Shown: piece by piece, positions 14,904 to 20,682 of the stretch
Layout of the letters: every line of letters begins with the position of its first letter
Numbering within the stretch: position 1 is the first letter of the stretch
Assembly: GCA_030390025.1 (NCBI GenBank)
Contig: CM059432.1
Location: forward strand, 89,840,001-89,904,000
Source of the DNA: Squalus acanthias
Lineage: Eukaryota
Direction of reading: 5' to 3'
Length of the DNA: 64,000 nucleotides
Position numbers and translations under genes: made by a program
The notes under the pieces: model-generated
The model's input: the letters and a program-made list of their open reading frames with translations, nothing else
Database searches by the model: none
What the model was told of the DNA's origin: nothing

Positions 14904-15245
14904 GTTGGCATTTTAATACCCCAGGTATTAAAAGAAATAGGTGAGGAAATTGCAGATGTGTTAGTCATAATTTTCCAAAGCTGTCTGGATTCGGGAATTG
15001 TGCCTTTAGATTGGAAAATTGCAAATATCACTCCAGAAGACTACAGCCCTGTCAGTTTAACATCAGTTGTGGGGAAATTCGGGAATCTATCATCAGGGAC
15101 AGAGTATCTTAGCACTTGGACAAGTATGAGTTGACCAAAGTGAGTCAGCATGGATTTATGATGGGTAGGTCATGTCTGATTAATCTAGTTGAATTCACTA
15201 CCATGCTGCATTGGGGAGTGTCTATGCATGTTGTTTATATGGAGT

Positions 15246-18200
15246 AGAAACATAGAAACATAGAAAATAGGTGCAGGAGTAGACCATTCGGTCCTTCGAG
15301 CCTGCACCGCCATTTAATGCGTTCATGGCTGAACATGCTACCTCAGTACCCCATTCCTGCTTTCTCGCCATACCCCTTGATCCCCCTAGTTGTGAGTATT
15401 ATATCTAACTCCCTTTTGAATATATTTAGCGAACTGGCCTCAACAACCTTCTGTGGTAGAGAATTCCACAGATTCACCACTCTCTGGGTGAAGAAGTTCC
15501 TCCTCATCTCAGTCTTAAATGGCTTCCCCTTTATCCTTAGACTGTGACCCCTGGTTTTAGTTTTCCCTAACATTGGAAACATTCTGCCCGCATCTAATTT
15601 GTCTAAACCAGTCAGGATTTTAAACGTCTCTATAAGATCCCCCCTCATTCTTCTGAACTCCAGAGGATACAAGTTCAGTTGATCCAGTCTTTCTTGATAT
15701 GTCAGTCTGGCCATCCCAGGAATCAATCTAGTGAACCTTCATTGCACTCCCTCAATAGCAAGAATGTCCTTCCTCAAGTTAGGAGACCAAAACTGCACAC
15801 AATACTCCAGGTGTGGCCTCACCAAGGCCCTGTACAACTGTAGCATCACCTCCCTACTCCTGTACTCAAATCCCCTTGCTATGAAGGCCATCATGCCATT
15901 TGCTTTCTTGACTGCCTGCTGCACTTGCCTTCCCACCTTCAGTGACTGATGTACCATGACGCCCAGGTCTTGTTGCACCTCCCCTTTCCCTAATCTGCCA
16001 CCATTCAGGTAATAGTCCGCCTCTCTATTTTTACCACCAAAGTGGATAACCTCACATTTATCCACATTGTACTTCATCTGCCATACATTTGCCCATTCAC
16101 CCAACCTGTCCAAGTCACTCTGTAGCCTCCTAGCATCCTCCTCATTGTTCACACTGCCTCCCAATTTAGTGTCATCCGCAAATTTGGAGATATTACATTT
16201 AATCCCTTCGTCCAAATCATTAATATATAATGTAAACAGCTGGGGTCCCAGCACCGAACCCTGCGGTACCCCGCTGGTCACTGCCTGCCATTCTGAAAAG
16301 TACCCATTTACTCCTACTCTTTGTTTCCTGTGTGCCAACCAGTTCTGAATCCACGTCAACACATTACCCCCAATCCCATGTGCTTTAACTTTGCTCACCA
16401 ATCTCTTGTGTGGGACCTTGTCGAAGGCCTTCTGAAAGTCCAAATACACCACATCTACTGGTTCCCCCCTGTCCACCCTATTGGAAACATCCTCAAAAAA
16501 TTCCAGAAGATTTGTCAAGCATGATTTCCCTTTCACAAATCCATGCTGACTTGGACCTATCATGTCGCCACTTTCCAAATGGTCTGTTATGACATCTTTA
16601 ATAATTGCTTCCATCATTTTACCCACGACCGATGTCAGGCTGACCGGTCTATAATTCCCTGCTTTCTCCCTCCCTCCTTTTTTAAAAAGAGGGGTTACAT
16701 TGGCCACCTTCCATTCCATCGGAACTGATCCGGAGTCTAAGGAATGTTGGAAAATTATCGTCAATGCATCCACTATTTCCAAGGCCACCTCCTTAAGTAC
16801 TCTGGGATGCAGACCATCAGGCCCCGGGGATTTTTCAGCCTTCAGTCCCATCAATTTCCCCAATACCTTTTCCCGACTAATAAGGATTTCCCTCAGCTCC
16901 TCCCTCTTACCAGATCCTCTGACCCCTTTTATTTCCGGCAGGTTGTGTGTGTCCTCCACAGTAAACACCGAACCAAAGTACTTGTTCAATTGATCTGCCA
17001 TTTCTTTGTTCCCCATTACGACTTCCCCTGTTTCCGACTGCAGGGGACCTACGTTTGTTTTTACTAACCTCTTTCTTTTTACATATTTATAGAAGCTTTT
17101 GCAGTCCATTTTAATGTTCTCTGCAAGCTTCCTTTCATATTTTATTTTCCCTGCCCTAATCAAACCCTTCGTCCTCCTCTGCTGAGTTTTGAAGTTCTCC
17201 CAGTCCCCGGGTTTGCTGCTACTTCTGTCCAATTTGTATGCAACTTCCTTGGTTTTAATACTATCCCTGATTTCCCTTGTTAGCCATGGTTGAGCCACCT
17301 TCCCTTTTTTATTTTTTACGCCAGACCGGGATGTACAATTGTTGTAGTTCATCCATGCGATCTCTAAATGTCTGCCATTGCCCTTCCACTGATAGCCCCT
17401 TAAATATCGCTTGCCAATTTAACCTCGCCAATTCACGCCTCATACCCTCAAAGTTGCCCTTATTTAAGTTCTGGACCATGGTCTCTGACTTAACTGTTTC
17501 CTTCTCCATCCTAATGTAGAACTCCACCATACTATGGTCACTCTTCCCCAGGGGGCCTCGTACCACAAGAGTGCTGATTAGTCCTTCCTCATTACACAAC
17601 ACTCAGTCCAGGATGGCCTCCCCTCGAGTTGGTTCCTCAACATATTGGTTTAGGAAACCATCCCTTAAACACTCCAGGAAATCCTCCTCCACCGTATTGC
17701 TTCCAGTTTGAGTAGCCCAACCTGTATGCATATTAAAGTCACCCATGATAACTGCTGCGCCTTTTTTGCATGCACCTCTGATTTCCTGTTTCATACCCTC
17801 CCCCACCTCACTACTACTGTTTGGAGGTCTGTACACAACCCCCACTAACGTTTTCTGCCCTTTGGTGTTCTGCAGCTCAACCAATATTGATTCCACATCC
17901 TCCAAGCTAATGTCCTTCCTAGCTATTGCAGTAATCTCCTCTTTAACCAGCAATGCTACCCCACCCCCTTTTCCTTTTATTCTATCCTTCCTGAATGTTG
18001 AATACCCCTGGATATTCAGTTCCCAGCCTTGATTGTTCTGGAGCCACGTCTCTGTAATCCCAATCACATCATATCCGTTAACATCAATTTGCACAGTCAA
18101 TTCATCCACCTTATTACGGATACTCCTTGCATTAAGACACAGAGCCTTTAGGCTTGTTTTATTAACACCCTTTGTCCTTTTAGACTTATGATTTAGTATG

Positions 18201-18570
18201 GCCCTTTGTGTTTCTTGTCATTGTTTACTCGGATTTCCCTTATTGTTTCTCACCCTTCTAACATTTGTTTCTGACTGCATATTACTTCCCCCTGTTTCGC
18301 TACATAGGTTCCCATTCCCCTGCCATATTAGTTTAAATCCTCCCGAACTGCCTTAGCAAATATTACCCCGAGGACATCGGTTCCAGTCCTGCCCAAGTGC
18401 AGACCGTCCCTTTTGTACAGGTCCCACTTCCCCCAGAACTGGTTCCAATGCCTCAGGTATTTGAATCCCTCCCTCCTGCACCACTGCTCAAGCCACGTAT
18501 TTAATCTCGCTATCCTGTTCATGCTACTCTGATTAGCACGTGGCACTGGTAGCAACCCAGAGATTACTAT
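15246..18570 (-). mobile_element. Young CR1 LINE, 5'-truncated within ORF1, near-complete ORF2
   Basis: ORF1 esterase-type end (VISGLLPVP...RDGLHL...EDLN*, 18328-18570), APE endonuclease (ITETWL, VVYRPPN, IMGDFN, SDH), RT (LDFQKAFD, PQGSVLGP, FADD) and (TTTCTATG)n tail. Confidence 0.97.
15343..18337 (-). pseudogene. CR1 ORF2 (endonuclease + reverse transcriptase) with four lesions
   Basis: In-frame TGA stops at 18218-18220, 17603-17605 (Trp position) and 15739-15741 (Arg position), plus a +1 A in an A-run near 17315. Otherwise continuous. Confidence 0.9.
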
Positions 18571-18925
18571 CTTTGGCTTTTGATAAGGTTCTGCATGACA
18601 GATTATTAGCAAAAATAAAAGTGCACAGAATTAGAGGTAACCTTGTGACATGGGTTGGTAATTGGTTGGGAGGTAGGAGACAGAGAATAGGGATAACGGG
18701 AGTGTATTCTGATTGGTTGGATGTGACAAGTGGTATTCCCCAGGGATCTGTACTGGGGTCTCAGCTTTTCACCGTGTTTATATCAATGAATTGAATGAAG
18801 GAATGGAGAGTTGTATACCCAAGTTTGCAGATGACACTAAGTTAGGAGGCACAGTAAGTAGATGGAAGCAGCAAATTGCAAAGAGACGTAAACACATTAA
18901 GTAAATGGGCAAAACTGTGGCAGTT

Positions 18926-20682
18926 CGCTACGTCTCCATCACCATCAAGACAGGTGACCAAGCCTGGTTCAATGAGGAATGTAGAAGAGCATGCCAGGTG
19001 TACCACCAGGCGTACCTAAAATGAGGTGCCAACCTGGTGAAACTACAACAACATGCATGCTAAACAGTGAAAGCAGCATGCTATAGATAAAGCTAAACGA
19101 TTCCACCACCAACGGATCAAGTCAGCCCAGCATGCAAGTACAAAAGACAAGGCTGAAGTGTTTGCAACCGTCTTCAGCCAAAAGTGTAGAGTGCATGATC
19201 CTTCTCGGCCTCCTCTTGTCGTCCCCACCATCACAGATGCCAGTCTTCTGCCAATTTGATTCACTCCACATGACATCAAGAAACAGCTGAATGCACTGGA
19301 CACAACAACGGCTACAGGCCTCAACAACATCTCAACTGCAGTGTGGAAGACCTGTGCTCCATAACTAGCCACACACTTAGCTAAGCTGTTCCAGTACCGC
19401 TACAACATGGGCATCTACCCAAAAATGTGCAAAATTGCCAGGTATGTCCTGTGCAACGTTTCCTCTAAGCTGCAAGGCCACGCCGTGCTCTGCCAGTCCC
19501 ACGCAGCCCCGGACCGGCTTTTCCCATGTTAAATTTCGCACACTGCGCGACACTGTGAATGGGCCGCACAGCCCCTTAAAGGGGCCACGCACCCAAAAAA
19601 GAAATTAGGGGAACATTTGTTCTGTCCACAAAAAACTGAACAAATCCAATCTGGCCAATTACCACCCTTTCAGCCTACTCTTAATCATCAGCAGATTGTT
19701 GGAAAGGGTCATCAACAGTGCTATCAAGCGGCACTTCCTCATCAATAACCTGCTCACCGATGCACAGTTTGGGATCTGCCCCATACCACTCAGCTCCATA
19801 CCTCATTACAGCCGTGGTCCAAACATAAACACAACAACTGAATTCCAGAGGTGAGGTGAGGGTGACGGCCCTTGACGTTAGGGAGCATTTGACTGAGTGT
19901 AGCACCAAGGAGCCCTCATAAAATTGAAGTCAATGGGGATTGGGGAGAAACTCTTCACTGGCTGGAGTCATACCCAGCACAAAGGAAGATGCTTGTGGTC
20001 ATTGGATGCCAATCATTTCAGCCCCAGGACATCGCTGCAGGAGTTCCTCAGAACAGGTCAGAAGTGGGGATGTTCGCTGATGATTGCACAGTGTTCAGTT
20101 CCATTTGCAACTCCTCAGATAATAAAGCAGTCCATGCCCGCATGCAGCAAGATCTGGACAACATCCAGTTTTGGGCTGATAAGTGGTAAGTAACATTTGC
20201 TCAACACAAGTGTTGGGCAATGACCATCTCCAACAAGAGAAAGCATAACCACCACCCATGACATTCAATGGCATTACTATCAGCGGGTCCCTCATCATCA
20301 ACATCCTGGGAGTCACCATTGACCAAAAACTGAACTGGACCAGCAACATCAATGCCATGACTACTAGAGCAGGTCAGAGGCTGGGTATTCTGCAGCGAAT
20401 GGCTCACCTCCTGACTCCCCAAAGCCTCTGAACCACAAGTAAGGAGTGTGATGAAATAATCTCCACGCGCCTGGATGAGTGCAGCTCCAACAATACTCAA
20501 GAAGCTCCAAACTATCCAACACAAAGCAGCCCGCTTGATTGGCACCCCATCCACCACCTTAAACACCCAGTCCCTCCACCACTGGCGCACCGTGGCTGTA
20601 GTACGTATTATCTACAGGATGCACTGCAGCAACTCGCCAAAGCTTCTTCAGCAGCACCTCCCAAACTCGGAACTCCACCACT
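18926..20682 (+). mobile_element. Second non-LTR family, degraded RT region
   Basis: QPQDIAAGVPQ, EVGMFADDCTVF and IQHKAARLIG motifs with deletions and frameshifts. Confidence 0.8.
19454..19618. mobile_element. hAT-type MITE (about 165 bp)
   Basis: TIRs CAACGTTTCCTCTAA / TTAGGGGAACATTT with a degenerate 8-bp TSD gtcctgtg / gttctgtc. Homologous to 24225-24388. Confidence 0.8.

What the first reader, a model, noticed from the sequence alone, without database searches (positions are those of the whole stretch)
18110..18345. In-phase U_UUA_AAC slippery site links CR1 ORF1 to ORF2: candidate -1 programmed ribosomal frameshift in a vertebrate LINE
Seen: on the minus strand ORF1 ends GAG GAT TTA AAC TAA, so the heptamer T_TTA_AAC (18337-18331) sits in the X_XXY_YYZ phase directly before the stop. 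The -1 frame reads FKLIWQGNGN... and runs 76 codons without an indel into the endonuclease (ALCLNARSIRNKVDEL), broken only by one TGA at 18218-18220. Established: UUUAAAC is the coronavirus ORF1a/1b shift site. Inference: ORF2 may be made as an ORF1-ORF2 fusion, gag-pol style. Caveats: I see no clear stimulatory stem or pseudoknot (only a G-rich run GGCAGGGGAATGGG), an in-frame ATG at 18280 allows reinitiation, and the ORF overlap in CR1 may already have been noted.
Basis: partly seen in the sequence, partly recalled or inferred. Interest (0 to 1): 0.72.

Follow-up and report, generated by a model that had tools for sequence, protein, structure and literature searches.

The report
Conserved ribosomal slip site in CR1
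A very common jumping gene of sharks and other animals ends its first gene on the same seven-letter slippery sequence that coronaviruses use, and its second gene continues one base back, often with no start codon, so it is most likely made by ribosomes slipping, which would answer an open question about how these elements make their copying enzyme.

Summary
Confirmed. A 5'-truncated, dead shark-type CR1 LINE ends ORF1 with T_TTA_AAC TAA, and the -1 frame leads into the endonuclease. The TGA at 18218-18220 is private to this copy. 53 of 61 ORF1 relatives end in LN, among them sharks, rays, coelacanth, Xenopus and turtle. More distant ones end in GN or KN, the peptides of G_GGA_AAC and A_AAA_AAC. 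In DNA, four lineages with saturated silent sites keep TTTAAACTAR (22 of 23 junctions). One lineage has no in-frame AUG before the endonuclease motif, so AUG reinitiation cannot be the general mechanism. No stimulatory stem, pseudoknot or long-range duplex is conserved. An unpaired (C/A)AGGGG run 8 nt after the heptamer is kept in 6 of 7 families. Best reading: -1 programmed frameshifting gives an ORF1-ORF2 fusion (about 0.8). This is inferred from conservation; no translation data exist. Ten literature searches found no report for CR1; a -1 shift is stated for Dictyostelium TRE LINEs. The scan noted the same idea before, elsewhere in this genome (e1-8041403).

The parts
18328..18576 (-). 3' remnant of CR1 ORF1 (SGNH/GDSL esterase end, DGLHL...EDLN*); element is 5'-truncated here
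   Evidence: 74% identical to residues 235-315 of Pristiophorus ORF1 P0002
18353..18355 (-). TAA that closes the -1 frame 15 nt upstream of the heptamer, which bounds where ribosomes can enter ORF2
18331..18337 (-). slippery heptamer U_UUA_AAC in X_XXY_YYZ phase
   Evidence: invariant block in 7 families
18328..18330 (-). ORF1 stop UAA directly after the heptamer (UAG in most relatives)
18317..18322 (-). conserved (C/A)AGGGG run starting 8 nt after the heptamer; candidate unstructured 3' stimulator
   Evidence: 6 of 7 families, always CAG/AAG GGG codons; no consensus pairing
18140..18337 (-). -1 frame linker, 66 codons, FKLIWQG... to the CLNARS endonuclease motif
   Evidence: no indel listed between 18120 and 18480 in four runs
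18278..18280 (-). in-frame ATG, preceded by out-of-frame ATGs at 18326, 18315 and 18305; position not shared by other lineages
18218..18220 (-). TGA private to this decayed copy
   Evidence: other letters at 18218 and 18220 at 100% of depth in 4 of 4 runs
17606..18139 (-). ORF2 APE endonuclease; the Asn of CLNARS aligns with LINE-1 ORF2p Asn14
15343..17605 (-). rest of ORF2 with the RT domain; broken by stops at 17605-17603 and 15741-15739 and a frame break near 17310
15245..15342 (-). 3' UTR ending in short octamer-like repeats
   Evidence: read from the sequence

Best explanation
Esterase-ORF1 CR1 LINEs make ORF2 as an ORF1-ORF2 fusion by -1 programmed ribosomal frameshifting. Most ribosomes read ...Leu-Asn and stop at the UAR right after U_UUA_AAC, giving ORF1p. 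A minority slip back one base on the heptamer and read a linker of 37-88 codons into the endonuclease and RT. This sets a gag:pol-like ratio. Shown: the heptamer, its phase, its invariance at nucleotide level, the open -1 linker, and the absence of an AUG in one lineage. Inferred: that slippage happens, and at what rate. Weaker inference (about 0.4): the pause comes from an unpaired G-run 8 nt downstream (a protein-bound or mRNA-channel element), perhaps helped by the adjacent stop, and not from a folded RNA.
For: Proteins: 53 of 61 with the DG.H motif end in LN. The last tripeptide fits a slippery heptamer in 50 of 80 clusters at 70% identity and 21 of 34 at 50%, against 4-5% at other offsets. 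The residue before LN takes ten different values but is Q/E/K/M/W (no codon ending in U) in 0 of 38, against 13 and 16 of 38 one and two places earlier. Before GN it is Q 9, A 1. LN, GN and KN are the peptides of three heptamers listed as most shifty in PMC5009743. Out-of-frame proteins read FKL at the spot. DNA: 5 of 5 loci with esterase plus endonuclease end T_TTA_AAC TAG; 22 of 23 junctions overall. Four lineages are 35-42% identical in the endonuclease with 4-fold sites about 25% identical; per-lineage chance of these codons is 0.023, 0.068, 0.004 and 0.136. No Met before the endonuclease motif in L013, L098 and 11 of 11 readable G012 copies; the first Met lies 16 codons past the start of the motif that holds the Asn aligned to L1 Asn14. 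One contig spans the junction with 42 fewer letters, phase kept.
Against: No translation data at all. No stimulatory structure: local folding is at shuffle level, there is no consensus fold, and the long-range duplex is at chance level and not conserved. Only L009 has a good hairpin. In-frame AUGs exist in the window family, L009 and L010. L213 has the heptamer, but its -1 frame closes after 13 codons and the endonuclease is in +1 (single copy). 9 of 23 junctions are not open to the motif (2 stops, 7 shifted or cut short). The GN/KN heptamers are inferred from protein only; no DNA was found. Esterase-bearing L170, L174 and the long-ORF1 elements lack the heptamer. LINE-1 ORF2 starts without needing its AUG (PMC5009743 passage), so a missing AUG does not by itself prove a shift.
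Confidence: 0.8

Rival explanations
1. Termination-reinitiation: ribosomes stop at UAR and restart in the -1 frame at a nearby AUG or non-AUG codon, as in SART1 or LINE-1. The conserved ten bases and G-run are a reinitiation signal.
For: In-frame AUG 2 nt after the stop in L010, 8 nt after it in L009, and at 18280 in the window. Reinitiation is the mechanism reported for SART1 (PMC3708506, PMC10275272 passages). L1 ORF2 initiation is described as AUG-independent.
Against: No AUG in the L013/L098/G012 lineage, and no CUG/GUG/UUG/ACG in the L013 linker. First-Met positions in ORF2 relatives scatter from 13 to 91 residues before the motif (gene-caller starts). Three out-of-frame AUGs come first in the window. 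It does not explain an in-phase X_XXY_YYZ, or the switch to GN and KN with matching upstream residues.
Confidence: 0.12
2. The frame change happens at the RNA level (polymerase slippage, editing or splicing at this site), or the motif serves another RNA or DNA function such as packaging or target priming.
For: No structural stimulator was found. The motif ends in AG in most families, like a splice acceptor.
Against: The stop is TAA in the window and L213, so the AG is not kept. Runs of three T and three A are short for polymerase slippage (own knowledge). Phase with both reading frames is conserved. No insertion or deletion is listed at the site, but only contigs were laid, of runs guessed to be DNA or of unknown kind.
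Confidence: 0.04
3. Only the ORF1 protein end (Leu-Asn) is conserved, and the heptamer is a by-product.
For: LN sits a fixed 21 residues after the catalytic-His motif in most vertebrate-type proteins, which could be structural.
Against: The codons are invariant where other silent sites are saturated (product of four lineages about 1e-6, about 4e-5 without the window). The residue before LN varies freely among those with U-ending codons. Tail length varies from 19 to 34 residues in distant groups while the end stays LN, GN or KN.
Confidence: 0.04

Closest known systems
CR1 subgroup 7 LINEs with type IVB (zinc finger/leucine zipper + esterase) ORF1 (PMC4120745, abstract and passages)
   Same: Esterase ORF1, APE-RT ORF2; the window copy is sister to a Pristiophorus protein (72%).
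   Different: The passages read say nothing on how ORF2 is translated and call the type exclusively vertebrate; here esterase ORF1s with the same heptamer also occur in ORF2 branches outside the vertebrate-type clade (hosts not determined).
Dictyostelium TRE5-A and TRE3-A (PMC5911963, figure legend passage; primary papers not seen)
   Same: APE-type non-LTR elements stated to need a -1 frameshift for ORF2.
   Different: Different clade and host; no esterase ORF1 is described in the passages read; shift site and experimental basis not seen by me.
Coronavirus ORF1a/1b -1 frameshift (IBV U_UUA_AAC; PMC5009743 and PMC7618472 passages)
   Same: Same heptamer, same phase, polymerase in the -1 frame.
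   Different: No pseudoknot 5-9 nt downstream; the stop abuts the heptamer; a G-run is conserved in place of a structure.
PRRSV nsp2 frameshift with a C-rich, protein-bound stimulator (PMC7618472 passage)
   Same: An unstructured sequence motif 3' of the shift site standing in for an RNA fold.
   Different: G-rich rather than C-rich; no trans-acting protein identified; resemblance only.
SART1 and LINE-1 ORF2 reinitiation
   Same: Bicistronic LINE RNA with low ORF2 output.
   Different: Those give a separate ORF2p from a UAAUG junction or a spacer; here the frames overlap on a slippery heptamer and one lineage lacks any AUG.

Membership tests
CR1 clade LINE, esterase ORF1 | APE endonuclease followed by RT in ORF2 | tested here: met
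   Pfam PF03372 and PF00078; profile aligns to L1 ORF2p
CR1 clade LINE, esterase ORF1 | SGNH/GDSL esterase in ORF1 | tested here: met
   PF13472 weak on the 82-aa remnant; 54-74% identical to six longer ORF1 relatives carrying PF13472
CR1 clade LINE, esterase ORF1 | Placement in the CR1 clade against reference elements | tested here: inconclusive
   Quick tree groups it with chondrichthyan proteins, but no named reference CR1 was in the tree; the label CR1 rests on domain layout, the short-repeat tail and recalled knowledge
-1 programmed ribosomal frameshift signal | X_XXY_YYZ heptamer in phase with the upstream frame | tested here: met
   definition in PMC7618472
-1 programmed ribosomal frameshift signal | Open -1 frame from the heptamer into the downstream protein | tested here: met
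   14 of 23 junctions open, the rest decayed or cut short; window stop private; L213 is a miss
-1 programmed ribosomal frameshift signal | Nucleotide-level conservation beyond coding need | tested here: met
-1 programmed ribosomal frameshift signal | Stem-loop or pseudoknot 5-9 nt downstream | tested here: not met
   hairpin only in L009, weak 7-bp stem in L013
-1 programmed ribosomal frameshift signal | Measured trans-frame product dependent on the heptamer | not testable with these tools
   needs a reporter, ribosome profiling or mass spectrometry
SART1-type termination-reinitiation | Conserved in-frame AUG at or next to the ORF1 stop | tested here: not met
   present in L010 and L009, distant in the window, absent in L013, L098 and G012

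The most novel reading that the evidence does not exclude
CR1-group LINEs as a whole make ORF2 as a gag-pol-like fusion through interchangeable recoding signals: -1 shifts on U_UUA_AAC, G_GGA_AAC or A_AAA_AAC that travel with the short esterase ORF1, UGA-C readthrough in one set of families, and UAG readthrough with a small GC hairpin in another. The -1 signal uses a new kind of stimulator, an unpaired G-run 8 nt downstream beside a stop codon, conserved from sharks to distant animal lineages.
Probability: 0.4. Interest if true: 0.85.

Novelty: new variant of a known kind. Interest (0 to 1): 0.72.

Why it matters
How LINE ORF2 is translated from a two-gene RNA is called an open question in the reviews read. 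CR1 is the dominant interspersed repeat of chicken and very abundant in these runs. A conserved -1 shift would mean ORF2p carries the whole ORF1p, esterase included, which changes models of the CR1 particle and the annotated ORF2 start. It would also expose CR1 to host anti-frameshift factors and supply a natural high-copy shift site with no folded stimulator. A 100-nt reporter tests it directly.

Tried and rejected
No whole genome is held for the window, so no genome-wide family count. ORF1-alignment scans of viral, metagenome and genome collections confirmed no locus; ORF2 alignment A2 found none in viral contigs; A3 gave 5 distant ones there, not used. No RNA holder listed, so expression is untested. 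Long-range pairing of the G-rich tract with 17055-17039 (-24.3 kcal/mol, best site in the element) was rejected: 78 of 300 shuffled queries, 33 of 300 shuffled targets and 40 of 331 other tracts did as well, and the homologous site was not the best partner in any other family. No G-quadruplex in the window's linker. A search of 20 more genomes with the GN-type alignment found no GN-type DNA. Taxon names for unnamed proteins could not be looked up. A single-sequence PDB search was blank; the profile worked. The supplement of PMC4255032 held no copy of the motif; the supplement of PMC2734521 was only listed. Wicker 2005 is not held. The careful tree did not finish; the quick tree is used. The second search of earlier findings, by sequence, was empty.

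Full report
Observation. On the minus strand the ORF1 remnant ends GAT TTA AAC TAA, with the heptamer at 18337-18331 in X_XXY_YYZ phase. The -1 frame opens 15 nt upstream and reads FKLIWQGNGN..., with an ATG at 18280 and a TGA at 18220-18218. It reaches the CLNARS endonuclease motif at codon 66. Pfam gives a weak GDSL esterase, an APE endonuclease and an RT. The copy is 5'-truncated near 18576 and ORF2 is broken at three further places. TTTAAAC occurs 20 times in the window, so the single copy is no evidence; relatives decide.

The family itself. Contigs of four runs (X3, X9, X14, X17; four coded organisms) were laid on 17900-18580. All four read other letters at 18218 and 18220 at full depth, giving an Arg codon, so the TGA is private to this copy. 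No insertion or deletion is listed between 18120 and 18480. No variant at the heptamer, stop or ATG appears among the 40 rows shown, but 82 rows were not shown. One contig of X9 joins ORF1 to the endonuclease with 319 letters in place of 361, a difference of 14 codons that keeps the phase.

Protein ends. Of 120 proteins carry the DG.H motif and 53 of these end in LN, nearly all 21 residues after the motif. Named ones come from Pristiophorus, Mustelus, Stegostoma, Hemitrygon, Hypanus, Mobula, Leucoraja, Pristis, Narcine, Latimeria, Xenopus tropicalis and Chrysemys; no named bird was among them. Adding the hits gives 249 proteins, of which 149 have the His block and end 15-36 residues later; the other 100 were left out. 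The last three residues can be encoded by a slippery heptamer in 93 of 129, 50 of 80, 37 of 62 and 21 of 34 clusters (90, 70, 60, 50% identity), against 4-5% at offsets 2-12. The misses include a group ending like L170 and several with long tails. At 70%, 38 clusters end in LN, 10 in GN and 1 in KN. The residue before LN takes ten values but is never Q, E, K, M or W, which have no codon ending in U (0 of 38; 13 and 16 of 38 at the two preceding places; 1 of 99 over all members). Before GN it is Q nine times and A once. [quoted passage not shown] Clusters share ancestry, so these counts are not independent events. Five out-of-frame or fused proteins read FKL at this place, including a Hypanus model that runs from esterase through FKLDVQG into the endonuclease; such models are not evidence of a real protein.

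DNA of other lineages. ORF2-based scans returned 160 loci from metagenome and genome contigs (apparently animal DNA in those assemblies, hosts not determined). Five had both esterase and endonuclease, and all five end ORF1 in T_TTA_AAC TAG. Searching 15 of the genomes behind them gave 27 more loci: five duplicates, three not reaching the ORF1 end, L169 and 16 copies of one family in G012 with the motif (one decayed to TTTAAAG), and two distant esterase elements without it (L170, L174). Leaving those two out, 22 of 23 junctions have TTTAAAC then TAA or TAG. Of the 23, 14 are open to the endonuclease motif, 2 have a stop and 7 are shifted or cut short. These fall into four lineages (window; L009; L010; L013/L098/L169/G012). 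Between lineages the endonuclease is 35-42% identical and 4-fold sites match in 3-8 of 19-25, which is saturation. Given each element's codon use, the chance of these three codons is 0.023, 0.068, 0.004 and 0.136, a product near 1e-6, or 4e-5 without the window. TTTAAACTA is the only long invariant block in a seven-family alignment. Twenty more genomes searched with a GN-type alignment gave 23 loci. One, L213, has the heptamer with TAA, but its -1 frame closes after 13 codons and its endonuclease lies in +1. It is a single copy and counts as a miss. The other 22 lack the heptamer at the ORF1 end and are long-ORF1 types, lack a nearby ORF2, or look bacterial. In a quick tree the heptamer-bearing elements do not form one supported clade, which suggests that the signal goes with the short esterase ORF1.

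Start codons. L013, L098 and 11 of 11 readable G012 copies have no Met before the endonuclease motif; in the typical G012 copy the first Met is 16 codons into it. The motif's Asn aligns with LINE-1 ORF2p Asn14, a conserved active-site residue (recalled). L013 has no CUG, GUG, UUG or ACG in its linker either. In-frame AUGs do exist in L010 (2 nt after the stop), L009 and the window; in the window three out-of-frame AUGs come first. AUG reinitiation is therefore possible for some families but cannot be the shared mechanism.

Stimulator. Local folding downstream of the heptamer is at shuffle level, and six sequences of one lineage give no consensus pairs. A 15-bp duplex with 17055-17039 looked attractive but failed three chance controls and is not conserved. 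L009 alone has a hairpin at the canonical spacing. What is conserved is (C/A)AGGGG starting 8 nt after the heptamer in 6 of 7 families (three of four lineages), always as CAG or AAG then GGG, so the constraint looks like RNA rather than peptide. It may be a protein-binding or mRNA-channel element, by analogy with the PRRSV C-rich motif (PMC7618472 passages). This step is speculative.

Mechanism and rivals. The best-supported reading is -1 programmed frameshifting to an ORF1-ORF2 fusion (0.8). Reinitiation (0.12), RNA-level frame change (0.04) and a protein-only constraint (0.04) each fail to explain phase, codon invariance and the LN/GN/KN switch together. None is excluded by experiment.

Literature. 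Ten searches of the open-access library showed no paper proposing a frameshift for CR1. I saw passages of PMC5009743, PMC11835228, PMC3708506, PMC2734521, PMC4120745, PMC5911963, PMC7618472, PMC13405545, PMC10275272 and PMC3542737, parts 1-2 of 3 of PMC3894237, and a supplement search of PMC4255032. PMC3894237 and PMC3708506 call ORF2 initiation unresolved. PMC5911963 states a -1 frameshift for Dictyostelium TRE5-A and TRE3-A. The original chicken and turtle CR1 papers and Repbase reports were not seen; I recall that the turtle paper reports overlapping ORFs, so an earlier remark is possible. It is an unchecked AI note, seen after my reading was formed, and it supplied the TRE lead.

Verdict. 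The feature is real and conserved, and it most likely works like a viral -1 frameshift site. It fails the classical structure test, so it is filed as a new variant. Interest 0.72.

Noticed in passing
L197:2461, L198:2568, L199:2250, L201 (minus strand), L203:2337, L208:1806, L209:2192, L194:2389: LINEs with a long esterase-bearing ORF1, seven of the eight ending in a CCHC-like knuckle, have ORF1 and ORF2 in the same frame split by one TAG followed by G (CGG in two). Seven of eight have a GGC...GCC four-pair hairpin 6 nt after the stop; L199 and L201 have no Met before the endonuclease motif. Candidate UAG readthrough (contexts in PMC3542737).
   Followed up: partly
L007, L008, L017, L019, L020 (ORF1 stops at about 983, 1015, 708, 733, 1646): Non-esterase CR1-like elements with ORF1 and ORF2 in one frame split by a single TGA followed by C (CAA, CTG, CTT, CTG, CTG); L019 and L020 have no Met before the endonuclease motif. 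Candidate UGA-C readthrough, in two separate tree branches.
   Followed up: partly
L170:290-300: An esterase ORF1 of another type ends HSI then TGA CTG with no heptamer and an in-frame ATG seven codons on.
   Followed up: no
L091 about 2420-2435: ORF1 ends A_AAT_TTA TAG with ORF2 overlapping in -1: another canonical heptamer in a non-esterase element; its sister L092 has a -1 overlap without a canonical heptamer.
   Followed up: no
L006, L011, L012, L015, L016, L018, L022, L023, L193, L196, L205, L215: -1 overlaps of ORF1 and ORF2 with no canonical heptamer at the ORF1 stop.
   Followed up: no
P0201, P0269, P0167, P0262: ORF1 proteins ending FFR, GFR, FFH, FFN, which fit U-rich heptamers one codon before the stop; no DNA.
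   Followed up: no
window 18441-19007: The truncated 5' end of the element meets an opposite-strand LINE RT fragment; the window holds about 15 further RT-bearing LINE fragments and no second ORF1.
   Followed up: no
P0010, P0088; L086-L165: CR1 ORF1 proteins filed under Pseudomonas aeruginosa and Proteus mirabilis, and many LINE loci inside prokaryote assemblies: apparently animal DNA contamination in public records.
   Followed up: no
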